Origin: a virus
IMG/VR virus record: IMGVR_UViG_3300035682_000005
Length of the DNA stretch: 64,000 bases
Strand: one strand, 5' to 3'
Numbering within the stretch: the stretch's first letter is position 1; each line of letters begins with the position of its first letter. The position numbers were made by a program, and so were the translations under genes. Below are positions 28,762 through 45,697 of this stretch, piece by piece. A model generated the notes under the pieces. It saw nothing but the letters and a program-made list of their open reading frames with translations, was not told the DNA's origin and did no database searches.

Positions 28762-28974
28762 ATGACCATGGCAAAAATTTACGATTACACTCGTTTTAAA
28801 ATTTTGCGAGAAATTAAAGACCTTGAAAATTTTGTTCGACTCAAGTACGAACAAGCTAAGAAGAATGAGTTTATGTGGTTTGATCATTACACTGTCACTA
28901 ATGCTCGTTCACGCGTTGACGAATTAAAAAAAGAACTTGAGGCACTGAATGATTCATCAATTTCTGAAGAATAA
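28762..28974 (+). CDS. hypothetical protein
   Basis: ORF tiling. Confidence 0.5.
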   Translation: MTMAKIYDYTRFKILREIKDLENFVRLKYEQAKKNEFMWFDHYTVTNARSRVDELKKELEALNDSSISEE

Positions 28975-29233
28975 AACGATTAAAAAATTGCTTGTCGAGT
29001 TGAATCGCGCTAAAAAACACGGGCACATTGTTTTCATTACGGATATTACAGACATAAAAATTCCTGGAGGTTGCTCAGAAGTGGTCGGAATAGAAATCAT
29101 TTTTACAGACAAAATCACAGACGATCAAGTGTGTAAGATTAGAAAGTATATTGAAGCCAACTACAAGTTTAAAGTTGATACGTCACTGATGGAACTTGGA
29201 AGAATACCAAGAATATTGCTCGTTATGTACTAA
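28949..29233 (+). CDS. paralogue family member 1
   Basis: TIKKLLVELNRAKKHGHI...IEIIFTD...KIRKYIEANY. Confidence 0.65.
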   Translation: MIHQFLKNKTIKKLLVELNRAKKHGHIVFITDITDIKIPGGCSEVVGIEIIFTDKITDDQVCKIRKYIEANYKFKVDTSLMELGRIPRILLVMY

Positions 29234-29270
29234 TATATACTTGTGAGAATATGACAAACGTGTGATTCTT

Positions 29271-29627
29271 ATGCAGAGTAATTCAACAATAGACAAACAA
29301 AAAGCTATTCTTGAAGAATTCATGAAAGCGCAACACAATGGTTTCATTCTTACCATCGACATTGAACTAAAAGAAAAGTCTGGCAAAATCATTTACGATC
29401 CAGATGCTGCTATGTATCGCAACAATGAATGGGAAGATCGCTCCGCAATAACAAGTGATCAATATGTACAAGATTTAAACAACGTTCCAGAGTACAAAAC
29501 GCTATACATACGATTTACTGAAGGTGTTAATAGTGAAGCAATTTTTAAAATTAAAGAGTACGTTGCACAGAAGTATCAATGTCAATGTGCAGTATACGAC
29601 AGACGCATAACTGTTTTTGACTTTTGA
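29271..29627 (+). CDS. paralogue family member 2
   Basis: ILEEFMKAQHNGFI...LYIRFTE...KIKEYVAQKY. Confidence 0.65.
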   Translation: MQSNSTIDKQKAILEEFMKAQHNGFILTIDIELKEKSGKIIYDPDAAMYRNNEWEDRSAITSDQYVQDLNNVPEYKTLYIRFTEGVNSEAIFKIKEYVAQKYQCQCAVYDRRITVFDF

Positions 29628-29642
29628 TTACTGAGATTTATT

Positions 29643-30920
29643 ATGACAATATTTCACGACAGAGTAAGCAAGCACATTCTAGTAGACCATTTTGATGTTG
29701 TGTACGACATCAACAAAAGTTTTGGTAATTTCATAGTTGATAAAAACACAGGCCGTCAATTGCTTGATGCATTCAGTTTTATAGCAAGCAATCCTATTGG
29801 ACACAATCACCCAAAGATGTTTGATCCAATATTTGAGTCGCGTCTACTGAGAGTTGCACGAACCAACCCATCAAACTCAGATATCCTTACTGAAGAGTAT
29901 GTTGAGTTTATTGAAACGTTTTTTAATGTAGCAGTGCCAAGCTATTTTAAAGACTCATTTTTCATTGCTGGCGGCAGCCTTGCGGTAGAAAATGCATTGA
30001 AAGCCGCATTTGACTGGAAATATCGCAAGCTCAAAGAACGAGGCATTGTAGCCAATCCAGATGACTTGAAGGTATTACACTTCAAAAATTCGTTTCATGG
30101 CAGATCTGGTTATACACTTTCAGTGACAAACACCGCAGATACCCGAAAGTATGATCTTTTTCCAAAGTTTCCTAACTGGCCACGACTCGAAGCTCCATAC
30201 ACACACGAATTGATTGGCGTGGAAGAGCAAGCAAAACGCGACACGGAATTTTTGCAGTATGCAGACGATGTTGTGACTAAGCTGGGACACAGCGTTGCGG
30301 CAATCTTGATTGAACCAATTCAAGGTGAAGGTGGAGACAACCATTTCACAAAACAATTTCATCAAGGGTTGAGAAAACTTGCCGATGATAAAGAGATGAT
30401 TTTGATATACGATGAAGTGCAAACTGGCGTGGGGCTGACTGGCAAAATGTGGGCACATCAACACTATGATGTAAAGCCAGATATTATTTCATTTGGAAAA
30501 AAAATGCAGGTGTGTGGCATTCTCAGTGGTGACAGAATTCGAGAAGTGAAAAACAATGTGTTTGAAGAAAAATCGCGCATCAACTCAACATGGGGTGGCA
30601 ATCTCACAGACTTTGTTCGTGCACAGAGATATCTTGAGATCATTCATGAAGATAATCTTGTTGATAATGCATCAATCGTTGGTGAATATCTGCTGGCTGG
30701 ATTGAAAAATCTTGGAGTGATGAACGCTCGTGGAAAAGGACTGATGTGTGCATTTGACATGCCAACTCCACAAGACCGTGATGCTCTTGTGAAAAGGTGC
30801 TACGACAATGGATTGTTTTTGCTTGGATGTGGAACAGTTTCAGTGCGAGTGCGTCCATCGTTGACGTTCTCCAAATCCAATGTTGATCAACTTTTGGATA
30901 TTGTCAAAAAGTCGTTATAA
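29643..30920 (+). CDS. lat: L-lysine 6-aminotransferase (class III PLP aminotransferase)
   Basis: SKHILVD; PSNSDI; GSLAVENALKAAFDWK; FHGRSGYTLSVTNT; EPIQGEGGDNH; DEVQTG; FGKK; SRINSTWGGNL. Confidence 0.88.
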   Translation: MTIFHDRVSKHILVDHFDVVYDINKSFGNFIVDKNTGRQLLDAFSFIASNPIGHNHPKMFDPIFESRLLRVARTNPSNSDILTEEYVEFIETFFNVAVPSYFKDSFFIAGGSLAVENALKAAFDWKYRKLKERGIVANPDDLKVLHFKNSFHGRSGYTLSVTNTADTRKYDLFPKFPNWPRLEAPYTHELIGVEEQAKRDTEFLQYADDVVTKLGHSVAAILIEPIQGEGGDNHFTKQFHQGLRKLADDKEMILIYDEVQTGVGLTGKMWAHQHYDVKPDIISFGKKMQVCGILSGDRIREVKNNVFEEKSRINSTWGGNLTDFVRAQRYLEIIHEDNLVDNASIVGEYLLAGLKNLGVMNARGKGLMCAFDMPTPQDRDALVKRCYDNGLFLLGCGTVSVRVRPSLTFSKSNVDQLLDIVKKSL

Positions 30921-30957
30921 AATTGACATTGGATTTCCTGGTTGATATATTTGTTAA

Positions 30958-32223
30958 ATGATAATTCGTCAATGTATCCAAGTTCTTGCAATTTTTATCA
31001 TTTCTTTAATCGCAGTAAATTCAAGCACAGCAGAACAAACAATACAGCGAATAGAGCCACGAGTCATTCGCACACACGTCCGTACGTACGGAACAGTCAC
31101 AATTCGCCTTACTCACGAAAAGTTATTTGCAGTTGATACAAGCGCAAACTTTTATCAAGGCGAAATTAAACTTCGATCTGGTTTATTTCCCGTTGCTGCA
31201 TCAGAAATCAATGGAGAGATGAGACTTACATTCAATGGTAGAATTACAGGATCGCGAAAAAGCAGACAGAGAACAATTACAATCAAGTCTCGCAACAATT
31301 TCAACACAGTTCGTGTTAGCTCAATGCCACGGAGTGCTAACCCAGAAAAAGCGTGTGCGACAGAAAGTCATGATCATAGCAACACAGTCCATGCAAGTGC
31401 AGTCGATCAAGACGCAGCAAAAATCAAAGTCATCACGATTAGCACGACTGCCGATGTTGAATGGGTATCACGATTTGGTTCCAGTTCAAATGCAGAAATT
31501 GCAAGCATTATTAATACAGCCGAAGCACTGTATGAAAGACAACTTGGCATTCGTTTTCAGATAGTATCTCAAAGTTTACAAACAGACAGCACACCTGAGT
31601 TGGATCCATCTTTAATTCTTAAAACATTTCAATCAACAGAGCCAGTCAAAGCGAATGTAAACTATCTTTTTACTGGCAAAGATATGTCCGGTGCCACCAT
31701 TGGAATAGCATACGTTGGATCAATCTGCTACGCGCCAGCATATGCATACGGTGTCGTGCAGTTTTACAACACACTCACATCAAGCGTGTTTGCTCATGAG
31801 TTGGGACACAATCTTGGCGCGCGACATGACTTCTCAAATTATGGAAGTCTTATGTATCCGTCAATTTCGCCTGGCACACCATACTTTTCATTAACCAGTC
31901 TTAATGAGATCAACACATTTTTGTCATACTTTAGTTCGTGTCTGGCAGTTGAAGAAGTGCCGGCGCAAAACACACCGGCAAAAATTAAAATTCAGACATC
32001 CAAACGCACTGCTACTGTTACTATTCTTGATACAAAAAACCAACCTATTGCTAATGAGCCAGTGACCTTTATTACAAAAGGACTTACACGCTCAGGCAAA
32101 ACAAACTCGCGCGGCAAAGCAAGCATCATTTTCTTTAATAAACGAGGCACGAAGATCCGATTGACTGTTAGATCGGATAACAATTTGGGGTTGCGAAAAA
32201 CAATTACCTTCAAAATCAAATAA
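30958..32223 (+). CDS. secreted metzincin (M12/reprolysin-like) protease
   Basis: Signal peptide; IGIAYVGSIC; AHELGHNLGARH; Met-turn LMYP. Confidence 0.85.
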   Translation: MIIRQCIQVLAIFIISLIAVNSSTAEQTIQRIEPRVIRTHVRTYGTVTIRLTHEKLFAVDTSANFYQGEIKLRSGLFPVAASEINGEMRLTFNGRITGSRKSRQRTITIKSRNNFNTVRVSSMPRSANPEKACATESHDHSNTVHASAVDQDAAKIKVITISTTADVEWVSRFGSSSNAEIASIINTAEALYERQLGIRFQIVSQSLQTDSTPELDPSLILKTFQSTEPVKANVNYLFTGKDMSGATIGIAYVGSICYAPAYAYGVVQFYNTLTSSVFAHELGHNLGARHDFSNYGSLMYPSISPGTPYFSLTSLNEINTFLSYFSSCLAVEEVPAQNTPAKIKIQTSKRTATVTILDTKNQPIANEPVTFITKGLTRSGKTNSRGKASIIFFNKRGTKIRLTVRSDNNLGLRKTITFKIK

Positions 32224-32256
32224 ATAAATGAAACCAGTTTTATCAAGAGATCGCAC

Positions 32257-32511
32257 GTGAACACTAATTCAAACCTAGTCATGATCGACATATCAACTCA
32301 GTTTCGTCGTGCTCAAGATTTAAACATGTTGATTGATTTTACTGAAACAGACTCTATGATCATGGCCACATTTAGTGACAGAACTCAAAATTTCATTATC
32401 GATGCAGTTGTAAAACACCTCACCATAAAATACGGCACTCACGTGTTTGTTGCTAGAAATTCCTTGAATCCAAAAGTTGTTGAAGTTTGGTACAGGGAAT
32501 CTGCAACATGA
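32257..32511 (+). CDS. paralogue family member 3
   Basis: ISTQFRRAQDLNML...MATFSDRT...VKHLTIKY. Confidence 0.65.
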   Translation: MNTNSNLVMIDISTQFRRAQDLNMLIDFTETDSMIMATFSDRTQNFIIDAVVKHLTIKYGTHVFVARNSLNPKVVEVWYRESAT

Positions 32512-32732
32512 AGCCGGTCTCGGCATTGATAGAAGAATTGCGAGCAGCGTCATATAAAAATGTGATCGCATCATTTCTACACATGCGGCACCACAGTATG
32601 ATTCGTGTGCGTTTTATACAAACACATGACTATCAAGAGAAACAACTTGAAGTCATGCAATACATATTTAAAACGTACGTGGATGTGAAAGATGTAACAA
32701 CGCTTGGACCTTTCATGTACATTGATCTATGA
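32508..32732 (+). CDS. paralogue family member 4
   Basis: PVSALIEELRAASYKNVI...RVRF...MQYIFKTY. Confidence 0.65.
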   Translation: MKPVSALIEELRAASYKNVIASFLHMRHHSMIRVRFIQTHDYQEKQLEVMQYIFKTYVDVKDVTTLGPFMYIDL

Positions 32733-32986
32733 GTTTGCCTACGTTTGATGATATGCGAGATGATTTGAATCGTGCGTATGAGCGCGAAGCAATCGCATAT
32801 TTTCATATTGGCAAAGTGCCAGGAGTAACATCATTCATTTCAGAAATTTTTTATGCGGATGACCAGTTTGATGTATACATTGCCATTAAAAACACCTATT
32901 TGGCAAAAGAAGATGATTTGAAACAGTACATGCGACAAAAATATGGACACATAATTCGTTTGCTCGTTGTAGAGCAACACACATAA
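32729..32986 (+). CDS. paralogue family member 5
   Basis: TFDDMRDDLNRAYEREAI...LKQYMRQKY. Confidence 0.6.
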   Translation: MSLPTFDDMRDDLNRAYEREAIAYFHIGKVPGVTSFISEIFYADDQFDVYIAIKNTYLAKEDDLKQYMRQKYGHIIRLLVVEQHT

Positions 32987-32998: not shown

Positions 32999-33262
32999 GT
33001 GAAAAAAACCATATACGAATTACGAGATCAGTTAATCGACGCAGAAGTGCATTTTGAAGTTCTGCACGTGTATGGAGATCACATTGTGATAGTTCTTGCA
33101 TATAATTTACTGAATGCAGACCGAAAGAAGCGAGAGTTGAAAGAGTACATAGAAAAAACGTTTGTCGCAGTCCTGCATGTGGATGTTTTTACTCAATACA
33201 TGGTTATTTGGCACGATTATGAAATTGTGTCACCGCAACATACAAAAAAGAAACGCCCGTGA
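32999..33262 (+). CDS. paralogue family member 6
   Basis: TIYELRDQLIDA...LKEYIEKTF. Confidence 0.6.
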   Translation: MKKTIYELRDQLIDAEVHFEVLHVYGDHIVIVLAYNLLNADRKKRELKEYIEKTFVAVLHVDVFTQYMVIWHDYEIVSPQHTKKKRP

Positions 33263-33552
33263 AGATGCAAAAGACGTTAGACGATTTGTATGAAGAAATT
33301 GAGGTTGCAAAGCAACACAGTATGCTCAATTCTGTTCACTATTTCAACTACGATCCATTGTCAAACACCTCGTCGTTGCCAAATGTACAGCGACTTGATG
33401 TTCTTTCTATAGAATTTAAGCACACATGTGACACCAACAAAGTTAAAGAAGTATACGAACACATACGAAACACCTATTGGAAAGTTGTTTATGACGTTCG
33501 TTTGGTAACATACAACAGAATTCATATTTACACGGTCAGTAAGGTTGTATGA
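33259..33552 (+). CDS. paralogue family member 7
   Basis: TLDDLYEEIEVAKQHSML...SIEF...YEHIRNTY. Confidence 0.65.
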   Translation: MKMQKTLDDLYEEIEVAKQHSMLNSVHYFNYDPLSNTSSLPNVQRLDVLSIEFKHTCDTNKVKEVYEHIRNTYWKVVYDVRLVTYNRIHIYTVSKVV

Positions 33553-33824
33553 GCACAATAGATGAATTGGAAACAATTTTTATGGAGGCAGTTCTAAACA
33601 ATCTTCTTGACGATGTTGTTTTAGACAAGAACTACATACAAGTGCACTTTAAACATACAACACATGTTGATGTTACCGTTAGAAAAATTACTGAGCATAT
33701 ACGAAAAAATTTTCCGCAGGTGAAGTATTTTAACACCAATAAACAAACTTGGATAATGGAAATTTATCATTACAAAAACCTTGATAAAGAAAGACTTTCC
33801 CAGGCAGTGGAAGAAAAACTATGA
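33549..33824 (+). CDS. paralogue family member 8
   Basis: TIDELETIFMEAVLNNLL...QVHF...TEHIRKNF. Confidence 0.65.
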   Translation: MSTIDELETIFMEAVLNNLLDDVVLDKNYIQVHFKHTTHVDVTVRKITEHIRKNFPQVKYFNTNKQTWIMEIYHYKNLDKERLSQAVEEKL

Positions 33825-34054
33825 AATCAATCGATCACCTTGAATTTGAACTGACACAAGCTAAAGAACATAACTTGATTGAGAGTTTTGAACACATTCA
33901 AAATCGAGATTGCATTCTCGTAAAGTTGAAAGAAAACACAAATGAGAAAACGTGTCAACAATTGAAGATGTACATACGTGATACATATAAAGAGGTCATG
34001 TACGTGACCCTTACTCCATATGAACGCGCATTGTACATCAGATATGTCATCTAA
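33821..34054 (+). CDS. paralogue family member 9
   Basis: SIDHLEFELTQAKEHNLI...VKLKENT...KMYIRDTY. Confidence 0.7.
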   Translation: MKSIDHLEFELTQAKEHNLIESFEHIQNRDCILVKLKENTNEKTCQQLKMYIRDTYKEVMYVTLTPYERALYIRYVI

Positions 34055-34334
34055 CAAAAAAACAATTTCGGAGTTAAAACACGAATTAAAAGTTGCTCAT
34101 GAGCAAGGACTTTTGGAGTATGTAATAGATATACGAGCAATCAAAACCGGACGTTACGGCATCATTTACAGCGATCCATATTTGTCCGTAAGATTCTTGT
34201 CAAATACAAGCGACAAAATCAAAAGTAAATTGATGTACTACATCCACAAAAATTATGAGCACGTAAAATCAATCAAGATGAGTAGCACATGTGATGTCAT
34301 CGAAGTGTATTATGACGAATCTCAAATCGATTAA
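34044..34334 (+). CDS. paralogue family member 10
   Basis: TISELKHELKVAHEQGLL...SVRFLSNT...MYYIHKNY. Confidence 0.7.
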   Translation: MSSNKKTISELKHELKVAHEQGLLEYVIDIRAIKTGRYGIIYSDPYLSVRFLSNTSDKIKSKLMYYIHKNYEHVKSIKMSSTCDVIEVYYDESQID

Positions 34335-34575
34335 ACAACTAAAAAATGATTTGCAACGGGCATTGAACGCAAATGCTATTCGCGACTACAGCCGTTTTGG
34401 CAATTCAAACTCAGTTTATCGACCATACATCGTAATTTCATTACACCGACACACTCCCATGAACATAAAACAAAGATTGGTAGAGCACATATATACATCT
34501 TACGAGAATATCCATTTCGTTGAATTGGTAAATCAAAACACCTGCATTTGTGTAGATTATGAGCGAGATGAGTAA
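34312..34575 (+). CDS. paralogue family member 11
   Basis: SIKQLKNDLQRALNANAI...HRHTP...VEHIYTSY. Confidence 0.7.
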   Translation: MTNLKSIKQLKNDLQRALNANAIRDYSRFGNSNSVYRPYIVISLHRHTPMNIKQRLVEHIYTSYENIHFVELVNQNTCICVDYERDE

Positions 34576-34822
34576 GATGAGCAACATCAGTAAACTCATC
34601 AAACAATTTTGTCAAGCTCATGAGCAAAACTTGTGTGCAGTACATTACAACACAGAGGATTATTCCTGTGGTGTGTTGGTGATTGATGTTCCGGTGCAAA
34701 GAAGTGTGGTAATTCCTGAACTTGTGCAACATGTAAAGAATACATATCCACAAGTAAATAGGGTGAACACATACGCATTTTTAGATTTTGTAAGAATAGG
34801 ATTTTGGTATGACAACCATTAG
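34559..34822 (+). CDS. paralogue family member 12
   Basis: NISKLIKQFCQAHEQNL...VQHVKNTY. Confidence 0.65.
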   Translation: MSEMSKMSNISKLIKQFCQAHEQNLCAVHYNTEDYSCGVLVIDVPVQRSVVIPELVQHVKNTYPQVNRVNTYAFLDFVRIGFWYDNH

Positions 34823-35198
34823 TGTAGAAGACACAATACGCAGCATCGTTTACGTTCACGATTTAGCAGCTATGGGGCTTGATGCAAAGCTGCCGCTGTC
34901 TATGAAAGATTTTGAACTGACACAAGATGTTGTAGACGCTCACATTCCCACACATGAAGAACGCGCAGCGATGATTGCATATCAATCGTGTTACTTTGCA
35001 TATCTTGCGCAAAATAAGAATGGCACATACGAAGAGTTTCGTCAAAACGTAAACCCAAATGCTGTTGAAACAGTCACACAAAACATTCTCTCAAAAATTC
35101 CAGAAACCGTAAAACTTGACGATCTTAAAGAAATTCATAGGGTGCAATTTTTGAACCTAACTCGTGTTGATAAAGACCGTCAGATTAGTGAAGACTAA
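34809..35198 (+). CDS. hypothetical protein (not in the family)
   Basis: Tiles between paralogues. Confidence 0.55.
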   Translation: MTTISVEDTIRSIVYVHDLAAMGLDAKLPLSMKDFELTQDVVDAHIPTHEERAAMIAYQSCYFAYLAQNKNGTYEEFRQNVNPNAVETVTQNILSKIPETVKLDDLKEIHRVQFLNLTRVDKDRQISED

Positions 35199-35476
35199 TG
35201 AATCATAAAAAACCAGTCAAAGAGTTAAAGCGTCAACTAAAACTGGCATACGAATCAAAATTGATTGAAATCTATCTTGTTCATGAAGATAGTCAGATTG
35301 ATATATTTCCACAAGACGCCTACGACTCACACATCGTGTTTACGTTTACCGAAGATACGCCAATGGAAACGCGTCGCAAACTTATTACATACATAGAAAG
35401 TGCGTTTGAATCTGTCATGGTGTCATCAAAAGCAGGAATGAAAATCATATGGATTGATTACATATGGGCTCAATAG
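35198..35476 (+). CDS. paralogue family member 13
   Basis: PVKELKRQLKLAYESKLI...FTFTEDTP...ITYIESAF. Confidence 0.7.
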   Translation: MNHKKPVKELKRQLKLAYESKLIEIYLVHEDSQIDIFPQDAYDSHIVFTFTEDTPMETRRKLITYIESAFESVMVSSKAGMKIIWIDYIWAQ

Positions 35477-35739
35477 ATTTTTTGCGAAAACAACTAGAAA
35501 TAGCACACAACAAAAAAACGATACGCAGTTTCTTAATATCGTCTATTTCTTTTCCAGTCATCATTGAAGGTGAGCATCGCACCACTTGTGCAAGCATAAC
35601 GTTTTTTGCAGACACACCATTGAATGTTCGACAACAAGTTGCAGAATATATTGACAGCACGTATCCAGATCTTGTCACGACATTATACCACACAACAGAC
35701 ACCGTTCTGTTCATCGACTTTAGAGATAAAACCAGATGA
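35464..35739 (+). CDS. paralogue family member 14
   Basis: SIDFLRKQLEIAHNKKTI...ITFFADTP...AEYIDSTY. Confidence 0.7.
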   Translation: MGSIDFLRKQLEIAHNKKTIRSFLISSISFPVIIEGEHRTTCASITFFADTPLNVRQQVAEYIDSTYPDLVTTLYHTTDTVLFIDFRDKTR

Positions 35740-36095
35740 CAGACAGATTAAAACAATTGCATGAGCTAAAGCAAAAACTGCAAGAAGCATATGAAAAGAA
35801 GCTGGTGTTCTCAGTGTCATTTGACCATTTGGATATGATGCCAGATACCGACGACCATCAGAACTATCACACAGCGTCAAGACTGTATCATAGAATTATA
35901 CTTCACGAAAACACACCAGGCAATGTTGCACACGAATTGTCAAATCACATTTCATCCACATACAATGTTAAATCGTTTGTCATTCACGACAGTGTTCCTC
36001 TAATACAAAACAGATATGCAGAGCCAATACGTGTATTGACGTTTCGCACATATATACTTTTCATTTACATAGACTTATGCGGCGTAACTCTATAA
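35736..36095 (+). CDS. paralogue family member 15
   Basis: LHELKQKLQEAYEKKLV...ILHENTP...SNHISSTY. Confidence 0.7.
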   Translation: MTDRLKQLHELKQKLQEAYEKKLVFSVSFDHLDMMPDTDDHQNYHTASRLYHRIILHENTPGNVAHELSNHISSTYNVKSFVIHDSVPLIQNRYAEPIRVLTFRTYILFIYIDLCGVTL

Positions 36096-36355
36096 ACATA
36101 TTGATGCAGCAGCTATCGGAAGCTAAACGGAAGAACTTGATCGTTGAGTTTGCCGCATACAACACATGTGAGATCAACTCATATATCATAGTGACTTTCA
36201 AAGCAGATACAAATAACAAAACGAAACACAAACTAGTAAAACACATCAAACAAAATTACGACGATGTTATTGCAACACACTTTAGCACCACTAACGAAAG
36301 GTTGTACATTGAGTATGACGACTGGGAAATCTTGCCAAAGTACATTGCGTTTTAG
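36077..36355 (+). CDS. paralogue family member 16
   Basis: SINILMQQLSEAKRKNLI...VTFKADT...VKHIKQNY. Confidence 0.7.
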   Translation: MRRNSINILMQQLSEAKRKNLIVEFAAYNTCEINSYIIVTFKADTNNKTKHKLVKHIKQNYDDVIATHFSTTNERLYIEYDDWEILPKYIAF

Positions 36356-36733: not shown

Positions 36734-37003
36734 ATGAAATCAGTAAATCGACTCATTGCAGAATTTTTACATGCCAAAAAAGCCGGTCTGGTTCTTAATG
36801 TTGTAAAAGATGAAAATTACTCCGACCACAACCCATATTTGACCATCATATTCAGATATGGTGTGTTAAATGATGTTGTTCGTAACCAATTGTTCCGACA
36901 TATTGAACATGCGTATACTGGTGTGTATGCCGAATCGGCACCACATGCCCCATCCATGATTTTTGTGTATTATGTGCCGGGGCGAGTGAAAATTGCAGCA
37001 TAA
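36734..37003 (+). CDS. paralogue family member 17
   Basis: SVNRLIAEFLHAKKAGLV...TIIF...FRHIEHAY. Confidence 0.7.
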   Translation: MKSVNRLIAEFLHAKKAGLVLNVVKDENYSDHNPYLTIIFRYGVLNDVVRNQLFRHIEHAYTGVYAESAPHAPSMIFVYYVPGRVKIAA

Positions 37004-37254: not shown

Positions 37255-38284
37255 GGTTGTCTTTGTAGTATTGACCAAGCATTCTCATTGCAGTTTGAAC
37301 ATCTTTTACATCAGACAACTTTTGAAGCTCTTTGAGTTGATCAACAAACCAACTAATAATTTCTCGCGATTCAATGATAGACATTGCAGCAAGACCTTCT
37401 ACTCGTCTGTTGCTAACATAGATGCCGTTTGTGCCATACGTTGCGTAGCTACCCCATGTAGTGCGATAGAGTAGAACGTGTGAATCTTTGCCCTCAACTT
37501 TTGGCAGAGGTATCTTAACGAACGTGTCGAAAAACTTTGCGCCAAGCTCACGCTGAAACGCAGCAAGCGCATCTTTCTTTGAGAACTTGCCTCGTGCTTT
37601 TACATCTTTCTTTTTTGCAAGTTTTGCAGTTGGGAAAATCTTTTCAGGGTTTCTGAGTGCTTCGTAGTCGCCTTCTTTTGAGTATCGAGATTGTGTGAGT
37701 TTGATTGTGCGGCGGTCGTGATATATTGCTGGATACACATAGACAGCAATCTCATTTTGATCACCAGCAGCAAGACCAGTGTTTTGTCGTTCTGATGAGT
37801 TGATGCTAATGCTTAGTGAGATGACTGTCGTTTTATCACGATTCTCAAATTGCAATCGTATTGACGCATGAGCACTGAATGATCCACTTGTCCTATCTTC
37901 AACGTCCATTGTGGCAGTGAATGTTTCACCAAAGATCTTTTCAAAGTGTTCTTTGAACGCATCGACCTTGACAGCTCGCTTTACATTTTCGAGTGCAGCA
38001 CGAACAAACGCAGCATCTTTTTCTTGAACTTTTTTCCACCAATTTTTGTCTATAGTTGCGCCAGCGATACGACCCGTGACGCCTTTGAGTCTATCATATG
38101 CAGCATTGATCTTCTTCATCGACTCAAGATCACCACCCTTGTCTGGGTGATTCGCAACGGCAGCTTTTTTATACGCAACTTTCAGACCATCGGCTGTTAA
38201 GTCGGCGGAGTCAAGGCTCAAGATGCGAAGTGCATCAGCAACACTCAAAGTGCTCTCAGTTAAGTAGTCGCGAAACTTTTTCAT
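37226..38284 (-). CDS. J-domain (DnaJ-like) protein with capsid-targeting-like leader
   Basis: ALRILSL...KVAYKKAAVANHPDKGG...MKKINAAYDRL; MKKFRDYLTES; CTAAATA at 38292-38298 (-). Confidence 0.8.
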   Translation of the reverse strand: MKKFRDYLTESTLSVADALRILSLDSADLTADGLKVAYKKAAVANHPDKGGDLESMKKINAAYDRLKGVTGRIAGATIDKNWWKKVQEKDAAFVRAALENVKRAVKVDAFKEHFEKIFGETFTATMDVEDRTSGSFSAHASIRLQFENRDKTTVISLSISINSSERQNTGLAAGDQNEIAVYVYPAIYHDRRTIKLTQSRYSKEGDYEALRNPEKIFPTAKLAKKKDVKARGKFSKKDALAAFQRELGAKFFDTFVKIPLPKVEGKDSHVLLYRTTWGSYATYGTNGIYVSNRRVEGLAAMSIIESREIISWFVDQLKELQKLSDVKDVQTAMRMLGQYYKDNLKKIDPSVV

Positions 38285-38415
38285 ACACACATATTTAGCA
38301 TACGCTCAATATAACTACAATCATGCTGATGATCACGATCATATTGTGTATCCAAATTGGATGAATTAAATACTTTGTATAAAATATGTACTATGATAGA
38401 CTTGTGTATTCCCAC

Positions 38416-38697
38416 ATGAAGACCACAGAAGACCTACTATTGCAGCTAAAGAAAGCACACACCAAAGGTCTGATCGACAGTGCGATATATTCTCGTCACC
38501 ACAAGAATGGATTTATAGCGATTCGAGTTGTGTTTCCAAAAACAATCACATCTGCAACCATTCTCAGACTACGAAAATTTGTAGAGCACACATACCAAGA
38601 CACCGAAGTGTCTTTAACAATTATTGATGATGACGAGAGTGTGGATATAAATGAAACCAAAGTTCAAATGATCATACAAGCACCGAGACGTATATGA
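38416..38697 (+). CDS. paralogue family member 18
   Basis: TTEDLLLQLKKAHTKGLI...RVVF...RKFVEHTY. Confidence 0.7.
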   Translation: MKTTEDLLLQLKKAHTKGLIDSAIYSRHHKNGFIAIRVVFPKTITSATILRLRKFVEHTYQDTEVSLTIIDDDESVDINETKVQMIIQAPRRI

Positions 38698-38954
38698 AGC
38701 CGATACAAAACTTGTATAAAGAACTATGCAGCGCAGATGATCAGAACTTGATTCATGCTCGCATTGTTCAGTTTCCAAGAATCGAGATTGTGTTTCGTAA
38801 GAACACTCCGTTCGACACTGTAGCAAAAATCAAAGAGTATGTTGATAAGACATATCCAATACATAACTTACATATTGGCGAATACATCTCGCCAAGTCAC
38901 AAGAGACATTTAACACTCTACATGGAAGTGAAGCAATTCTATCAAGGCGCATGA
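38694..38954 (+). CDS. paralogue family member 19
   Basis: PIQNLYKELCSADDQNLI...EIVFRKNTP...KEYVDKTY. Confidence 0.7.
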   Translation: MKPIQNLYKELCSADDQNLIHARIVQFPRIEIVFRKNTPFDTVAKIKEYVDKTYPIHNLHIGEYISPSHKRHLTLYMEVKQFYQGA

Positions 38955-39217
38955 TAAAAACAGATCGAAAGCCAGTAGAATTGTTTATTGAACAACTCAA
39001 CATAGCATATGAGCGCAATCTTATTTTGTCACTCAGTTACAATTATCCACATGTTGCGGTAACCTTTCACAAAGAGACTGAAGCACACATTGTTGATCGT
39101 ATTGTTGATGTTGCACGAAAAAATTATCAGTCAATCCAAAAAATTCGTGTCGAGTGTCACCGACATCACTCATCGAGACACTATCACTACTCAATATATC
39201 TCGTGCTTGATAAATAA
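38951..39217 (+). CDS. paralogue family member 20
   Basis: PVELFIEQLNIAYERNLI...AVTFHKET...VDVARKNY. Confidence 0.7.
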   Translation: MIKTDRKPVELFIEQLNIAYERNLILSLSYNYPHVAVTFHKETEAHIVDRIVDVARKNYQSIQKIRVECHRHHSSRHYHYSIYLVLDK

Positions 39218-40883: not shown

Positions 40884-41897
40884 ATGACAAAAAAACGAAT
40901 TGGTTTTGCTTGTAAATGGATTGACTCACCTGAACAAGTAAATGGAATTAAACCCAACGATTCGGCAAAAATATACAGCACACAAACAACTACGGTAGCT
41001 TGGATGAACCGTCAAACACAATCGGCGGCATATGACCGATTGTGGAGTATTATGCAGCACAACATTAGAAGTATGCAATTATTAGTTGCGCGTGTTGCTG
41101 ATTTAGATCCAATGTTGCGCATGGTGCGTCTTAGCAGCGAAGCTCTTCCGTTATATTCACACAATGATTTTTGTGTTTTTTATAAACAAAAAGATGTGCA
41201 AGAATATATGATTAAAGAATTTGCAACACTTGGTGATTTAGCTCGCAGCCGAGATGTGCGAGTGAGTTTTCATCCAGGTCAATTTACAGTTTTAGCCAGT
41301 GACAAACCTATCACTGTTGACAATAGTATTCGAGAGTTTGAATGCCATGTTGATATGGCTCGAATGATGGGTTTTGCAAAACAATTTCAAGATTTTAAAA
41401 TCAACGTACATATTGCTGGTCGTCTTGGACCGGATGGCATTATAGCCGTGTTACCAAGATTGAGTGAGGGTGCTAAAAAAACCATTACAATTGAAAATGA
41501 AGAAATGACCTACGGTCTTGATGATTGTCTTAAATTAGTTGAACACACCCCTATAGTTTTGGACCTACATCATCACTGGGTCAAAACTGGCGAATACATA
41601 CAGCCCGATGATTCAAGAATTCAAAAAGTTTTAGATAGCTGGCGTGGCGTGCGACCTGTATTGCATTATAGTCAAAGTCGAGAAGATGTGCTTGTTGAAC
41701 ATAACAAAGATCGTATGCCAGATCGCAAATTGTTGTTAGAAACAGGATTTAACAAACCAAAACTGCGCACACATTCCGATTTTTTTTGGAACAATGCTGT
41801 AAACAAGTATGCTGTTTCTTTTCTTAATAATTTTGACATTATGTGTGAAAGTAAAGCAAAAAACCTTGCAAGTATGCAGCTTTTAACTCATTTATAA
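40884..41897 (+). CDS. uvsE: UV-damage endonuclease
   Basis: RIGFACK; MVRLSS; SFHPGQF; NVHI; TIENEE; DLHHHW; HYSQSRE; HSD; MCESKAK. Confidence 0.92.
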   Translation: MTKKRIGFACKWIDSPEQVNGIKPNDSAKIYSTQTTTVAWMNRQTQSAAYDRLWSIMQHNIRSMQLLVARVADLDPMLRMVRLSSEALPLYSHNDFCVFYKQKDVQEYMIKEFATLGDLARSRDVRVSFHPGQFTVLASDKPITVDNSIREFECHVDMARMMGFAKQFQDFKINVHIAGRLGPDGIIAVLPRLSEGAKKTITIENEEMTYGLDDCLKLVEHTPIVLDLHHHWVKTGEYIQPDDSRIQKVLDSWRGVRPVLHYSQSREDVLVEHNKDRMPDRKLLLETGFNKPKLRTHSDFFWNNAVNKYAVSFLNNFDIMCESKAKNLASMQLLTHL

Positions 41898-41943
41898 TTT
41901 ATGCAATGTTGGGTATAAATCCAATGCCCCATAAATACACTCA

Positions 41944-43137
41944 ATGAAGTTATCGAAACGTGCGCAGTCAACATCAGTTTCGCCGATACGCAACCTTGTT
42001 CGACCAAAGAACACGATATCTCGCGTTTACGGGCTGAACATTGGGCAGCCCGACTTAGCATCACCTCAAGAATTCTTTGATGGACTGCATACGTTTACAT
42101 CGCCAGTGCTTGCGTACGATGCAGCATCTGGCAACAAGTCACTTCTTGACGAATGGTCTGCAACACTCAACACACAGTATTCACTCAATGTAACGCCACA
42201 GCAATTGCTCATCACCTCTGGCTCAAGTGAAGCACTCACGCTCATGTTCAATACATGTTGTGATGTTGATGATGAAATTATTGTGTTTTCACCATCGTAT
42301 GCAAATTATGCTGGTTTCGCCACAATTACTGGCGCAAAACTTATTGCAGTTGAATGTTCGCTTGCAGATAACTTTCATTTGCCACACGATGTAGAAACTC
42401 AACTCGACACAATCATCACAAAGCGAACAAAAGCTCTTCTTATTTGCAACCCCAACAATCCATCTGGCACAGTCTATACACACAACGAGATGTGCACTCT
42501 TATCAAAGTGTGTGAAAAGCACGATATCGTGTTGATTGTTGATGAGGTGTACAGAGAATTTGTGTTTGATGATAGAAAACCATCGTGTGTGTTTGAACTT
42601 GCGCCAGAAAACAAGCACATTGTCGTTGTTGATAGCATTTCAAAACGGTATAGCTTGTGTGGCGCTCGCATTGGCTGTGTTCTTACATGGAACACTGAAA
42701 TACTTGACGCAGCAACAAACTTTGCAAGCACACGAGTATCAGCACCAACAATTGAACAAGTTGCAGCAGCACACATGCTTAAACACATCAGTGATAGCTA
42801 CTTACTTGATGCTGTACAAGAGTATGAACAGAGACGAAATGTTTTAGTCGCAGGGCTCAAAGAGATTCCAGACGTAGAGTTTCAAACACCAGAAGGTGGA
42901 TTTTACGTGCTCGCAAAACTGCCAGTAGAGAACTCAGCAGACTTTGCACGTTTCATGTTGCAAGAGTTTTCACTGAATGATGAAACTGTTTTTGTGTCGC
43001 CAGCGCACTCGTTCTTCTTCCACTCAACGCAGCACACTGATTATGTACGAATTGCGTTTGTGTTATCGTGTGATGATTTACAGCAAGCAGCAAAGATCAT
43101 CAAGAAAGCACTTGAAGCGTATTGCTATCGAACGTAA
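41944..43137 (+). CDS. class I/II PLP-dependent aminotransferase (aspartate aminotransferase-like)
   Basis: LNIGQPD; TSGSSEA; CNPNNPSG; DEVYREF; DSISKRYSLCGARIG; PEGGFY; VRIAF. Confidence 0.9.
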   Translation: MKLSKRAQSTSVSPIRNLVRPKNTISRVYGLNIGQPDLASPQEFFDGLHTFTSPVLAYDAASGNKSLLDEWSATLNTQYSLNVTPQQLLITSGSSEALTLMFNTCCDVDDEIIVFSPSYANYAGFATITGAKLIAVECSLADNFHLPHDVETQLDTIITKRTKALLICNPNNPSGTVYTHNEMCTLIKVCEKHDIVLIVDEVYREFVFDDRKPSCVFELAPENKHIVVVDSISKRYSLCGARIGCVLTWNTEILDAATNFASTRVSAPTIEQVAAAHMLKHISDSYLLDAVQEYEQRRNVLVAGLKEIPDVEFQTPEGGFYVLAKLPVENSADFARFMLQEFSLNDETVFVSPAHSFFFHSTQHTDYVRIAFVLSCDDLQQAAKIIKKALEAYCYRT

Positions 43138-43394: not shown

Positions 43395-43510
43395 ATAATC
43401 TTATATAGCACACTCAACAGCTTGACTGCAACACGAAACGTATGATAAGAATCATAAAACACACACTTTTTGGATTGTGAGAATATCCACGAATCCAACA
43501 AAATTGACTA

Positions 43511-43540
43511 TTGACAGAAAACTCCAGAATCGTGTATACT
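43511..43540 (+). promoter_or_regulatory. sigma70 promoter
   Basis: TTGACA-18-TATACT. Confidence 0.75.
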
Positions 43541-43547
43541 GATTCGT

Positions 43548-43847
43548 ATGAAGACAATCGAACACATCGCTCGACAGCTTACAGCAGCAACAGAACAGAA
43601 CCTTATCAAGTCGTGGAACGCTCGACTCGTCACAGACTCAAACATTCTATACTACACGAAGCCGCAAGACCTCGTGCGCAACGGCAGTAAAAAGCCAGCA
43701 GACTACGACCTCTCGATTTGGTTTCACAAGACACCGCCATCACGAACTATTCAAGCTCTCGTGAATCTCTTACACGACAAGTATGGATGCACGTTGATTA
43801 CAATGCCAGCAGATGATATGCTTAGAATGAAAGTGACACAGAGATAA
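43548..43847 (+). CDS. paralogue family member 21
   Basis: TIEHIARQLTAATEQNLI...SIWFHKTP...VNLLHDKY. Confidence 0.7.
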   Translation: MKTIEHIARQLTAATEQNLIKSWNARLVTDSNILYYTKPQDLVRNGSKKPADYDLSIWFHKTPPSRTIQALVNLLHDKYGCTLITMPADDMLRMKVTQR

Positions 43848-43858
43848 ATAGTAGCACT

Positions 43859-44182: not shown

Positions 44183-44185
44183 CTT

Positions 44186-44425
44186 GTGATAGACACACTC
44201 ATACAACAGTTCACAGAAGCAGCATCACGCAATCTCGTGAAACAAGTTGAAGTGTATCCACGCGAGCCACAGAAAGGTGCAATCCAAATTGTGTTTGTTA
44301 CATTCTATGAAACAACACCAGCAGAAACACGACAAGCACTCATAGAAGCAATCAAGACAAAGTATCACTGCACTGTAAAGCTCGTATCGCAGCACGTTAT
44401 ACTAGCATTTCCAGATCACACATAA
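44186..44425 (+). CDS. paralogue family member 22
   Basis: IDTLIQQFTEAASRNLV...VTFYETTP...IEAIKTKY. Confidence 0.7.
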   Translation: MIDTLIQQFTEAASRNLVKQVEVYPREPQKGAIQIVFVTFYETTPAETRQALIEAIKTKYHCTVKLVSQHVILAFPDHT

Positions 44426-44492
44426 ATTTTGTTTCTTGCTGGATAATCAAATATATTGACAGACCCATCCGCTGTGTGCTAGAGTATATTAT

Positions 44493-44744
44493 ATGCTCGA
44501 TTCACTTATTGAACAATTGTCCGTTGCGCAACAACAGCAGCTTGTTCAGTATGCAATCCACAAACGACGAATCGTTACAAACAATCACACACTAAAAACG
44601 CACGATTCATTTGTTATTAAATTCACTGCAACAACAGAACAACACACAATAGATGCGATTATTAGTGTTCTTGCACAAAAGTACAACGCAGCAGTCTACG
44701 TTATGCAATCAGATCTTATTGTTGCAACCATTCAAGAACAATAA
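44493..44744 (+). CDS. paralogue family member 23
   Basis: LDSLIEQLSVAQQQQLV...IKFTATT...ISVLAQKY; own promoter TTGACA-18-TAGAGT. Confidence 0.7.
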   Translation: MLDSLIEQLSVAQQQQLVQYAIHKRRIVTNNHTLKTHDSFVIKFTATTEQHTIDAIISVLAQKYNAAVYVMQSDLIVATIQEQ

Positions 44745-44755
44745 CACCGCCTTGT

Positions 44756-45049
44756 ATGGACGCTGACATCAACAAAATCTTTGCACAACTTAAACTTGCA
44801 GAAAAGCACCAACTTGTTGAGCACTGGAGTCACAACTTTGATTACAATAACCGTCAAACGACATTTAATATTGTTTTGTTAGAGTCCACGAATGATGCTC
44901 AAATCCAAAAATTAAAAGACATTCTTACCTACAAGTACGGCGCACAAATCAAAAATGACAACTACTTTCGCGCACTCAAATACTTTGGCGACAAAGCCAC
45001 GAGCGCAATGCATTCAAAACGAATCATCGCGTTCACTGTATGGGGATAA
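44756..45049 (+). CDS. paralogue family member 24
   Basis: INKIFAQLKLAEKHQLV...IVLLEST...KDILTYKY. Confidence 0.7.
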   Translation: MDADINKIFAQLKLAEKHQLVEHWSHNFDYNNRQTTFNIVLLESTNDAQIQKLKDILTYKYGAQIKNDNYFRALKYFGDKATSAMHSKRIIAFTVWG

Positions 45050-45164
45050 CAAAGCACCACTATGATTGTGATGCTAACGTAAGACAGCGAGCACAATACT
45101 ATCCATATTTCAATCGCACACTCTCAAAGAAAGAGATACAAGAATTGCAGAAAGCAAAACCACA

Positions 45165-45410
45165 ATGATCAGCTTCCAACTACTCAAAGAACTCAAACAC
45201 GCAGAAGACGAACAGTTTCTCAGATACCTTGTGAGCAGTGACGACCACGTCTACATCAGATTTTCAAACAAGAGCACAACCCTCGACCAGATACACAAAG
45301 TGCAGCAGCACATCGAAGCAGCATATGACTATAGAACAGAAGTCATAGAAGGCATTACAGGTCCAGTCATGTGGGTTTATCCAGAACAACCTCTCAAGAA
45401 GAACACATGA
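45165..45410 (+). CDS. paralogue family member 25
   Basis: LLKELKHAEDEQFL...YIRF...QQHIEAAY. Confidence 0.65.
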   Translation: MISFQLLKELKHAEDEQFLRYLVSSDDHVYIRFSNKSTTLDQIHKVQQHIEAAYDYRTEVIEGITGPVMWVYPEQPLKKNT

Positions 45411-45697
45411 TCAATCCAAAATTAAAAGCAGAACTCGATAACGCACAAGAGAACAGCAAGCTCACGTATACACTGACGCCCCATGCCACGAGAGTTGGTG
45501 TAGTATTCAGATTCCCACATACACAGAGACAGAAAGTACGAGACGTGCAGAATCATATAGAATCAAAGTACAAGTACAGAACAGCCATCGCTGGCTATGG
45601 GTACAATATAGCACTCATTATATTCTTAGACAGAACAGAACAAGAGCAGCAAACGAGAAATTTCAGTTCCAAAGCAGCTATAAAAACAGATACTTAG
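45407..45697 (+). CDS. paralogue family member 26
   Basis: LKAELDNAQENSKL...GVVF...QNHIESKY. Confidence 0.65.
   Translation: MINPKLKAELDNAQENSKLTYTLTPHATRVGVVFRFPHTQRQKVRDVQNHIESKYKYRTAIAGYGYNIALIIFLDRTEQEQQTRNFSSKAAIKTDT

What the first reader, a model, noticed from the sequence alone, without database searches (positions are those of the whole stretch)
28949..45697. About 26-member expansion of one unknown small protein family in tandem arrays
Seen: 26 ORFs of ~75-120 aa, in clusters at 28.9-29.6, 32.3-37.0, 38.4-39.2 and 43.5-45.7 kb, share one pattern despite very low identity. It runs: N-terminal helix [ST/P]-[IV]-x-x-L-x-x-[EQ]-[LF]-x-x-A-x-x-x-x-L-[IV]; a strand; a length-variable insert; a strand h-x-h-x-F-x-x-x-T-(P); a second helix ending [HY]-I-x-x-x-Y; two C-terminal strands. 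Many are coupled by ATGA overlaps (32508, 32729, 33549, 33821, 35736, 38694, 38951, 45407), and two have their own sigma70 promoters. Inference: a conserved alpha/beta scaffold with hypervariable surface, amplified by repeated duplication, suggests an early-expressed repertoire of inhibitors or decoys against a variable host target (e.g. anti-defence). I recognise no family for it. This is the strongest candidate for an undescribed system here.
Basis: partly seen in the sequence, partly recalled or inferred. Interest (0 to 1): 0.88.

Follow-up and report, generated by a model that had tools for sequence, protein, structure and literature searches.

The report
Twenty-six-paralog small-protein family in phage
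An uncultured T4-like phage carries 26 very divergent copies of one small, uncharacterised protein that is old and conserved in related phages, so it looks like a stable set of specialised binding proteins whose targets are unknown.

Summary
In leave-one-out tests each gene is recovered at E <= 3e-5, and the best non-member scores E >= 0.025. AlphaFold models of a central and of the most divergent member share one alpha-beta-beta-alpha-beta-beta core, with the variable insert between strands 1 and 2. This is a circularly permuted ferredoxin-like sandwich, a common arrangement.

No Pfam, PHROGs, NCBIfam, PDB-sequence or cultured-phage match exists. Relatives (158 clusters at 50% identity) are all small proteins; every contig I fetched came from metagenomes or IMG/VR, and those long enough to judge belong to one clade of T4-like phages with 9 to 26 or more syntenic copies each.

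The arms-race reading is not supported. In a tree, 24 of 26 copies are sister to genes of other phages and none to another window copy. Orthologues have dN/dS of 0.03-0.28, like neighbouring enzymes, and the insert has 0.11.

Conserved sigma-70-like promoters fit early expression. A role as a host-takeover or anti-defence binder set is plausible but untested. Another reader of this scan noted the same stretch as a "gene accordion"; my tests contradict that word.

The parts
28949..29233 (+). family member 1 (94 aa)
   Evidence: leave-one-out HMM E 9.6e-10; orthologues at 76-78% identity in L001 and L003
29262..29627 (+). family member 2 (121 aa, about 40-aa insert between strands 1 and 2)
   Evidence: leave-one-out E 4.4e-6; AF2 pLDDT 80 with the family core and a low-confidence insert
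32257..32511 (+). family member 3 (84 aa)
   Evidence: leave-one-out E 1.6e-6; 93% orthologue in L002
32508..32732 (+). family member 4 (74 aa from the ATGA-coupled start; the ORF opens at 32487)
   Evidence: leave-one-out E 5.4e-12; ATGA overlap
32729..32986 (+). family member 5 (85 aa)
   Evidence: leave-one-out E 2.7e-5, the weakest member; ATGA overlap; orthologues at 79-87%
32999..33262 (+). family member 6 (87 aa)
   Evidence: leave-one-out E 2.7e-7
33259..33552 (+). family member 7 (97 aa, GTGA overlap)
   Evidence: leave-one-out E 2.6e-10; 94% orthologue in L002, dN/dS 0.03
33549..33824 (+). family member 8 (91 aa)
   Evidence: leave-one-out E 6.5e-10; ATGA overlap
33821..34054 (+). 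family member 9 (77 aa, closest to the family consensus)
   Evidence: leave-one-out E 7.8e-18; orthologues at 40-92% in many metagenomic phages
34020..34334 (+). family member 10 (104 aa; the true start may lie further in)
   Evidence: leave-one-out E 2.5e-16
34291..34575 (+). family member 11 (94 aa; the true start may lie further in)
   Evidence: leave-one-out E 1.2e-15
34559..34822 (+). family member 12 (87 aa)
   Evidence: leave-one-out E 4.7e-10
35198..35476 (+). family member 13 (92 aa)
   Evidence: leave-one-out E 5.2e-15
35464..35739 (+). family member 14 (91 aa)
   Evidence: leave-one-out E 1.6e-12
35736..36095 (+). family member 15 (119 aa, extra loop before strand 3)
   Evidence: leave-one-out E 2.3e-9; ATGA overlap
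36077..36355 (+). family member 16 (92 aa, the modelled member)
   Evidence: AF2 pLDDT 89.8, H6-18 E22-28 E35-41 H47-60 E64-70 E75-80; leave-one-out E 2.3e-17
36734..37003 (+). family member 17 (89 aa from the internal ATG; the ORF opens at 36641)
   Evidence: leave-one-out E 8e-9; the 89-aa orthologue in L003 supports the short form
38416..38697 (+). family member 18 (93 aa; the ORF opens at 38386)
   Evidence: leave-one-out E 6e-10
38694..38954 (+). family member 19 (86 aa)
   Evidence: leave-one-out E 1.6e-12; ATGA overlap
38951..39217 (+). family member 20 (88 aa)
   Evidence: leave-one-out E 1.2e-11; ATGA overlap
43548..43847 (+). family member 21 (99 aa, long insert)
   Evidence: leave-one-out E 8e-11; promoter-like site ends 7 nt upstream
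44186..44425 (+). family member 22 (79 aa)
   Evidence: leave-one-out E 5.1e-11
44493..44744 (+). family member 23 (83 aa)
   Evidence: leave-one-out E 1.2e-10; promoter-like site ends 7 nt upstream and is conserved in L002 and L001
44756..45049 (+). family member 24 (97 aa)
   Evidence: leave-one-out E 2.8e-9
45165..45410 (+). family member 25 (81 aa)
   Evidence: leave-one-out E 6.8e-11
45407..45697 (+). family member 26 (96 aa from the ATGA-coupled start; the ORF opens at 45371)
   Evidence: leave-one-out E 1.7e-6; ATGA overlap; 88-94% orthologues in metagenomes
30923..30951 (+). sigma-70-like promoter (TTGACA, 17 nt, TATATT with TG) ahead of the M12B protease gene and, with only a 33-nt gap after it, of the 15-gene main array
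   Evidence: conserved with the same 6-nt distance to the ATG in L001, L002 and L003
43511..43540 (+). sigma-70-like promoter ahead of member 21
   Evidence: 11 of 12 consensus matches
44456..44485 (+). sigma-70-like promoter ahead of member 23
   Evidence: conserved in L002

Best explanation
The 26 genes are an old, tandemly generated family of small (74-121 aa), soluble, single-domain proteins. They share a circularly permuted ferredoxin-like two-layer sandwich (alpha-beta-beta-alpha-beta-beta).

Shown:
- The family is real, the fold is shared, and each copy is an intact gene.
- In comparisons with L002, L003 and L001 the copies are under purifying selection and have positional orthologues across a clade of uncultured T4-like phages.
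- The only residues conserved across the whole family are core-packing ones: Ala in helix 1, Tyr at the end of helix 2, the hydrophobic stripes and a helix-capping Thr. There is no catalytic-looking motif.

Inferred:
- The genes are transcribed early by host sigma-70 RNA polymerase as tightly coupled polycistronic units.
- Each paralogue uses its own fixed surface, mainly the open face of the four-stranded sheet plus the insert between strands 1 and 2, to bind a different macromolecular target in the infected cell.
- Together they act as a repertoire of host-takeover or anti-defence modulators built on one scaffold.

The set was diversified long ago and is now maintained. Between phage lineages it changes by gain and loss of whole genes, not by rapid sequence change.
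For: - Family and fold.
- Real, constrained genes: window versus L002 orthologue dN/dS is 0.03-0.28 at dS 0.3-1.5; window versus L001 gives the same direction.
- Old duplications: 24 of 26 window copies are sister to genes of other phages and none to a window paralogue. Similarity decays with gene-order distance.
- Repertoire turnover: 9 to 24 copies lie within 15-21 kb loci of relatives, with lineage-specific presences and absences. A sister clade whose aminotransferase is 70% identical has none nearby.
- Faster protein evolution than neighbouring enzymes at depth: family orthologues are 19-60% identical where the adjacent aminotransferase is 70-74% identical.
- Paralogue-specific constrained surface: non-core strand positions are 78% identical between orthologues against 67% for non-core helix positions (one-sided Mann-Whitney p=0.005). 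The insert is 86% identical, dN/dS 0.11.
- Early-type expression: perfect TTGACA -35 boxes with extended -10 sit in intergenic gaps at 30923, 43511 and 44456. Those at 30923 and 44456 are conserved in relatives despite near-saturated synonymous divergence. No TATAAATA late box lies in the region.
- Soluble and heterogeneous: no hydrophobic 19-residue window reaches 1.6 on the Kyte-Doolittle scale; pI ranges from 5.0 to 9.8.
- Precedent: the AcrID1 anti-CRISPR family has several very divergent clustered paralogues per archaeal virus genome, expressed early (PMC11065993).
Against: - No target, partner or phenotype is known, and the host is unknown.
- Purifying selection with no sign of positive selection is not what an active arms race with variable defence proteins usually leaves.
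- The promoter sites are consensus matches only. Their count in the window is only marginally above shuffles: 9 found against 4.65 expected, and 6 of 100 shuffles reach 9.
- The strand-versus-helix contrast could simply reflect the generally slower evolution of strands.
- The fold is a common arrangement and carries no functional signal: the best Z of 8.2 is to an engineered S6 permutant, within the range the tool reports for unrelated matches.
Confidence: 0.4

Rival explanations
1. The proteins serve the phage's own processes rather than attacking the host. They could be small regulatory or adaptor modules, for example ACT/RAM-like ligand sensors or partners of the interspersed enzymes (two aminotransferases, an M12B protease). 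They could also be clients or co-factors of the DnaJ-like protein encoded inside the array region.
For: - The arrays are interleaved with metabolic genes and a J-domain gene, and this layout is conserved in relatives.
- Structural similarity to the C-terminal domains of ACT, RAM and NikR at Z 5.3-6.1.
- Purifying selection at the level of the enzymes fits housekeeping-type roles.
Against: - Strand order is permuted relative to ACT/RAM, and no ligand-binding motif is conserved.
- 26 copies far exceed the number of plausible enzyme partners.
- Copy number ranges from 9 in a 20-kb locus to 26 or more between relatives that keep the same enzymes.
- A sister clade keeps the aminotransferase without any copy nearby.
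Confidence: 0.2
2. The paralogues assemble with one another into hetero-oligomers, forming a structural or scaffold assembly inside the cell or the virion. The ATGA overlaps would then serve stoichiometric co-production.
For: - Eight ATGA and one GTGA overlaps give tight translational coupling.
- Two-layer sandwiches with an open sheet face often pair edge-to-edge or face-to-face (own knowledge; PilO/GspM-type domains are among the structural matches).
Against: - No T4-type late promoter lies in the region, and none of the 26 has the capsid-targeting-like leader seen on other genes of this genome.
- Copy number varies widely between relatives, which is unexpected for a fixed assembly.
- Charge is very heterogeneous.
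Confidence: 0.1
3. They are RNA- or DNA-binding modulators, for example of translation or mRNA stability in a host that does not use Shine-Dalgarno sequences.
For: - Ferredoxin-like and S6-like folds often bind RNA; the best structural match is an S6 permutant.
- The genome lacks Shine-Dalgarno motifs and may use leaderless mRNAs.
Against: - Net charge runs from -4 to +6, about half of the members are acidic or neutral, and no basic patch is conserved.
- The S6 match is to an engineered permutant and carries no sequence similarity (8% identity).
Confidence: 0.1
4. This is a recent 'gene accordion': copies amplified lately under an arms race, with positive selection on the insert and the surface. 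This is the reading of the first reader and of another reader of the same stretch.
For: The copies are arranged in tandem and paralogues share very low identity.
Against: - No window copy is sister to another window copy; 24 of 26 pair with genes of other phages.
- Orthologues are 46-94% identical with dN/dS of 0.03-0.28.
- The insert has dN/dS 0.11.
- No pseudogene remnants were found.
Confidence: 0.05

Closest known systems
AcrID1 anti-CRISPR family of Rudiviridae (SIRV1/2/3)
   Same: Small single-domain viral proteins. Several very divergent paralogues are clustered in one genome (26 of 35 known homologues lie in four viruses; minimum identity 7.3%). They are expressed early from a shared promoter type (PMC11065993).
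   Different: These are archaeal viruses with roughly 6-7 copies per genome rather than 26. No sequence or structural match to this family appeared in any search here. AcrID1 has a known target; this family has none.
Small early genes of T4 hyperplastic regions (host-takeover 'monkey wrenches')
   Same: Short ORFs packed head to tail with overlapping stop and start codons. They sit between core modules of a T4-like genome behind host-type promoters (own knowledge of T4; layout here).
   Different: The T4 genes are mostly unrelated to one another. Here 26 of them descend from one ancestor and keep one fold.
Circularly permuted ferredoxin-like domains (PilO, GspM/EpsM periplasmic domains; engineered S6 permutants)
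   Same: Same alpha-beta-beta-alpha-beta-beta order and two-layer sandwich. Z 8.2 (rmsd 2.5 A, 76 residues aligned) to 6i6y; Z 6.4 to PilO 2rjz; Z 5.7 to EpsM 1uv7.
   Different: Sequence identity is only 8-10%. PilO and GspM are membrane-anchored periplasmic parts of secretion and pilus machines, whereas these proteins have no hydrophobic anchor. Z values in this range are common for unrelated proteins.
ACT / RAM / NikR C-terminal small-ligand-binding domains
   Same: Two helices packed on one face of a four-stranded antiparallel sheet; Z 5.3-6.1. An ESM Atlas Lrp/AsnC ligand-binding cluster matches with TM 0.58/0.69.
   Different: The canonical order is beta-alpha-beta-beta-alpha-beta, so this family is a permutation. 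No Pfam ACT or AsnC hit, and no conserved ligand-site residues.
Multigene families of large eukaryotic DNA viruses (poxvirus Bcl-2-like proteins, ASFV MGFs)
   Same: One fold is reused for many very divergent paralogues that each hit a different host target (own knowledge, not tested here).
   Different: Different hosts, folds and genome scale. The likeness is only an analogy of evolutionary logic.

Membership tests
The new family itself (profile built from the window) | Each member is recognised by a profile built without it, well above every other ORF | tested here: met
   Leave-one-out E from 8e-18 to 2.7e-5 for all 26; best non-member E >= 0.025
The new family itself | Shared alpha-beta-beta-alpha-beta-beta core with an insert between strands 1 and 2 | tested here: met
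   AF2 models of a central member (pLDDT 89.8) and of the most divergent member (pLDDT 80). Only two of the 26 were modelled.
Any Pfam-A, PHROGs or NCBIfam family | A score above threshold, shared by several members | tested here: not met
   Pfam: no family hit by more than 1 of 26, or by more than 1 of 141 members, all below the gathering score. PHROGs: none at E<0.01. NCBIfam: one stray hit at E 0.009.
Proteins with a solved structure (by sequence) | A significant profile match to a PDB chain | tested here: not met
   The 141-sequence profile gave a best E of 0.47
ACT/RAM (ferredoxin-like ligand-binding domains) | beta-alpha-beta-beta-alpha-beta strand order | tested here: not met
   The predicted order is alpha-beta-beta-alpha-beta-beta in both models. 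This rests on predicted structures, not solved ones.
ACT/RAM | Small-molecule binding at a dimer interface | not testable with these tools
   No ligand docking or assay is available here
PilO / GspM-type domains | alpha-beta-beta repeated twice | tested here: met
   Z 6.4 (rmsd 3.3 A, 78 aligned) to 2rjz_B; Z 5.7 to 1uv7_B
PilO / GspM-type domains | N-terminal membrane anchor and a periplasmic location within a pilus or secretion operon | tested here: not met
   The highest 19-residue Kyte-Doolittle mean is 1.49, below 1.6. The gene context is a phage accessory region.
AcrID1 and other known anti-defence proteins | Sequence or fold similarity to a characterised inhibitor | tested here: inconclusive
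   None appears among the rows shown from Foldseek pdb, VIA-align wide or BFVD. Absence from these lists does not exclude a relationship, and no anti-defence HMM library was on hand.
   The only KH-named row is a BFVD hit with TM 0.39. BolA is not listed.

The most novel reading that the evidence does not exclude
A phage-encoded binder library. One minimal alpha/beta scaffold was diversified long ago into 26 or more fixed specificities, each neutralising or rewiring a different host protein, many of them defence components. The repertoire is then reshuffled between phage lineages by whole-gene gain and loss. This would be the largest single-fold counter-defence or takeover family known in a bacteriophage, and a natural analogue of engineered binder scaffolds.
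Probability: 0.3. Interest if true: 0.8.

Novelty: new variant of a known kind. Interest (0 to 1): 0.58.

Why it matters
The 26 copies occupy about 7.2 kb, roughly 5% of a contig of about 150 kb if the 150,126-bp record listed for the window's own proteins is this genome. Paralogue families of this size are rare in tailed phages.

The family has no entry in Pfam, PHROGs or NCBIfam, so it is a candidate for a new domain family. It has 158 clusters at 50% identity and a confident fold model.

The copies are old, individually conserved and differ mainly on one face. That gives a ready-made natural experiment in how one tiny scaffold acquires many specificities. It also gives a defined list of 26 or more small genes to screen for host-takeover or anti-defence activity.

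The negative result matters too. Low paralogue identity in a tandem array was read twice in this scan as an arms-race accordion, and comparison with orthologues shows that this inference is wrong here.

Tried and rejected
- Megablast of the array and tblastn of a central member against 50,697 phage records found no match. The clade has no cultured representative. The best isolate hits for the gp32-like SSB are T4-like cyanophages at 57-59% identity, and for a tail protein 23%.
- The search for related loci with family alignments failed because no stretch was conserved enough. With the DnaJ-like protein it found nothing. The neighbouring aminotransferase worked.
- ESM Atlas feature search gave no usable hit for two members.
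- Homodimer prediction for member 16 gave the verdict 'no answer' (score 0.01). It is evidence neither for nor against oligomerisation.
- An apparent 184-aa two-domain fusion (P0035) is a gene-calling artefact. It reads two adjacent genes through a TAG codon.
- The interspersed ORFs 34809-35198 and 45817-46215 are not significantly related to each other (E 0.54). These two and the other non-family ORFs tested in the region, small and larger (70-293 aa), have no Pfam family.
- The 70-aa ORF 28762-28974 is repeatedly the best non-member (E 0.025-0.29) but never significant. I do not count it.
- Weak Foldseek matches to a GyrA/ParC tower subdomain (E 0.04, TM 0.45-0.48) and to RNA polymerase subunit L/Rpb11 (Z 5.3-6.3) were judged to reflect a common arrangement.
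- Literature searches for described phage paralogue families of this kind returned nothing relevant apart from the AcrID1 precedent.

Full report
**Context**

The window is part of a large, uncultured T4-like myophage. It encodes:
- a gp32-like SSB, DNA ligase, PhoH and exonucleases;
- a baseplate tail-tube cap, a phrog_350 tail protein and a baseplate hub with lysozyme;
- four tRNAs.

The nearest cultured phages are T4-like cyanophages, at 57-59% identity for the SSB and only 23% for the tail protein. No nucleotide match exists among 50,697 phage records. The window's own proteins are listed on a contig of 150,126 bp. The finding lies in an accessory region between structural modules. That region also holds a class III aminotransferase, an M12B metalloprotease with a Big_1 domain, a DnaJ-like gene on the minus strand, UvdE, tRNA-Pro and a class I/II aminotransferase.

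Yes, completely.
- BLASTP already links many of the small ORFs at E from 1e-3 to 1e-6.
- A profile built from 8 of them recovered 14 more at E<1e-3, and the next round added 4. The search then converged on 26 of the window's 406 ORFs, with nothing else listed even at E<10.
- In leave-one-out tests every member is recovered (E from 8e-18 to 2.7e-5), against E >= 0.025 for the best outsider.
- A stop-to-stop scan shows no further copies or decayed fragments.
- Paralogues are on average 19% identical, at most 33%.

**Fold**

AlphaFold2 with the 26-paralogue alignment gives a confident model of member 16 (pLDDT 89.8, pTM 0.78). Its order is helix, strand, strand, helix, strand, strand.

Member 2 scores lowest against the profile. 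With a 141-sequence alignment it gives the same core (pLDDT 80) with a low-confidence insert of about 40 residues between strands 1 and 2.

Structure searches found no specific relative.
- Foldseek against the PDB has nothing at E <= 1e-3.
- The exhaustive aligner's best match is an engineered circular permutant of ribosomal protein S6 (Z 8.2, rmsd 2.5 A, 76 residues, 8% identity).
- This is followed by phosphatase cap domains, designed proteins, PilO/EpsM, NikR/ACT/RAM domains and RNA polymerase subunit L at Z 5-7. The tool itself states that this range is typical of unrelated matches.

The fold is therefore a circularly permuted ferredoxin-like sandwich, which is a common arrangement. In the viral model library the only clear match is an unnamed protein of an uncultured Caudovirales phage (TM 0.70/0.83, 25% identity). 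Three more rows from uncultured Caudovirales phages are weaker.

**Known families**

None matched:
- Pfam on 26 and on 141 members;
- PHROGs;
- NCBIfam;
- PDB sequences with a family profile;
- cultured phage genomes by tblastn;
- the ESM Atlas.

**Distribution**

An exhaustive profile search of 1.84 billion cluster representatives found 158 clusters at E <= 1e-3. All are proteins of 69-200 aa. The word-indexed search found 32, none with a Pfam domain or an informative name.

All the contigs I fetched belong to relatives of this phage and share its synteny: tail gene, two family members, aminotransferase, M12B protease, main array, DnaJ-like gene and so on.

| Locus | Copies found | Locus length |
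|---|---|---|
| L002 | 24 | 15 kb |
| L001 | 16 | 19 kb |
| L003/L008 | 16 | 12-18 kb |
| L021 | 15 | 20 kb |
| L009 | 13 | 21 kb |
| L010 | 13 | 18 kb |
| L012 | 10 | 18 kb |
| L022 | 9 | 20 kb |

A sister group whose aminotransferase is about 70% identical (L011, L013, L014), and more distant phages, have none near that gene. One apparent fused form was a gene-calling artefact.

**Evolutionary mode**

- Each window paralogue has a positional orthologue in related phages: 46-94% identity in L002, 56-81% in L003 and 43-84% in L001. Its best window paralogue reaches at most 33%.
- In a maximum-likelihood tree of 105 members, 24 of 26 window copies are sister to genes from other phages and none is sister to a window copy. 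The remaining two have orthologues at 63-94% identity on other metagenomic contigs.
- Window versus L002 gives dN/dS of 0.03-0.28 for the 19 family pairs that gave an estimate (synonymous divergence could not be estimated for one). This is indistinguishable from the neighbouring protease, aminotransferase, DnaJ-like and unknown genes, at 0.08-0.14.
- Pooled by structural element, the insert has dN/dS 0.11 and 86% orthologue identity. The least constrained parts are the termini, helix 2 and the loop before it, at 0.18-0.28.

So the duplications are old, each copy is kept by purifying selection, and there is no sign of a recent accordion or of positive selection on the insert.

Over longer distances the family does evolve faster than the enzymes: 19-60% identity where the aminotransferase is 70-74%. 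The gene set also differs between lineages, which fits birth-and-death turnover. Similarity between paralogues falls with distance in gene order (Spearman -0.25, none of 2000 permutations as low). This is the expected trace of local tandem duplication.

**What the sequences say about function**

- Family-wide conservation is confined to core-packing positions: an invariant Ala in helix 1, a Tyr present in 88% of copies at the end of helix 2, the hydrophobic stripes and a helix-capping Thr. A shared catalytic or ligand site is therefore unlikely.
- No member has a transmembrane-like segment.
- pI ranges from 5.0 to 9.8, which argues against a uniform DNA-mimic or nucleic-acid-binding role.
- Positions that vary between paralogues but lie on strands are better conserved between orthologues than such positions on helices: 78% against 67%, p=0.005. 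This is modest evidence that the open sheet face, together with the conserved insert, carries the paralogue-specific function.

**Expression signals**

Seven perfect TTGACA boxes with a spaced TAnnnT lie on the plus strand between 30.9 and 50.1 kb. Most have a TG-extended -10. Those at 30923, 43511 and 44456 sit in intergenic gaps ahead of family units.
- The site at 30923 heads the protease gene and, after a 33-nt gap, the 15-gene main array.
- The promoters at 30923 and 44456 are conserved in relatives despite high synonymous divergence.
- No T4-type late box lies in the region.

These are consensus matches, and their overall count is only marginally above shuffles (6 of 100 shuffles reach it). 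Early expression is therefore likely but not shown.

**Best explanation and rivals**

I think the most likely reading (about 0.4) is a repertoire of early, soluble, single-domain binding proteins, each with its own fixed target in the infected cell. That would make it a host-takeover or anti-defence set built on one scaffold, diversified long ago and now maintained.

The closest documented parallel is the AcrID1 family of archaeal rudiviruses. It has several extremely divergent paralogues clustered in each genome and is expressed early (PMC11065993).

Rivals:
- phage-internal regulatory or adaptor roles linked to the interspersed enzymes or the J-domain protein (0.2);
- a hetero-oligomeric assembly (0.1);
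- nucleic-acid binding (0.1);
- the recent arms-race accordion (0.05), which the data here contradict.

A homodimer prediction returned no verdict and is not used as evidence either way.

**Verdict**

This is a real, well-delimited, undescribed protein family with an unusual degree of paralogy for a phage. Its function is unknown.

Noticed in passing
window 30923-30958, 43511-43548, 44456-44493; L001 7662, L002 613 and 11871, L003 5035: The -10 element of three strong sigma-70-like promoters ends 6-7 nt before the ATG of the downstream gene. This geometry is conserved in related phages, which suggests leaderless early mRNAs.
   Followed up: partly
window, upstream 22-25 nt of 45 plus-strand genes (e.g. 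25161, 29643, 39224, 60495): No Shine-Dalgarno-like purine run precedes any inspected gene. The host probably initiates translation without Shine-Dalgarno pairing. The host identity is unknown.
   Followed up: partly
window 30958-32223: A reprolysin-like (M12B) zinc metalloprotease with a C-terminal Big_1 domain heads the transcription unit of the main array. It is conserved in all relatives examined. This is an unusual enzyme for a phage.
   Followed up: no
window 37226-38290 (-): A 354-aa protein with a weak J-domain (phrog_13942) is encoded on the opposite strand inside the array region. It keeps this position in L001, L002 and L003.
   Followed up: no
window 34809-35198: A 129-aa ORF unrelated to the family sits in the middle of the main array. 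It is conserved at 74-85% identity in relatives and has no Pfam family.
   Followed up: partly
window 29643-30920 and 41944-43137: The accessory region holds two different PLP aminotransferases (class III and class I/II), plus UvdE (40884-41897). UvdE is missing at this position in relatives L001 and L002.
   Followed up: partly
L002 12859-14183: The close relative L002 carries four extra family members with no close orthologue in the window. It lacks counterparts of window members 17, 21, 25 and 26, so whole genes are gained and lost at the array ends.
   Followed up: partly
window 12575-13438: This is the only ORF in the window that starts with the capsid-targeting-like leader M[KR]x[FY]xx[FY][IL]xE noted by other readers. 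None of the 26 family members has it.
   Followed up: yes
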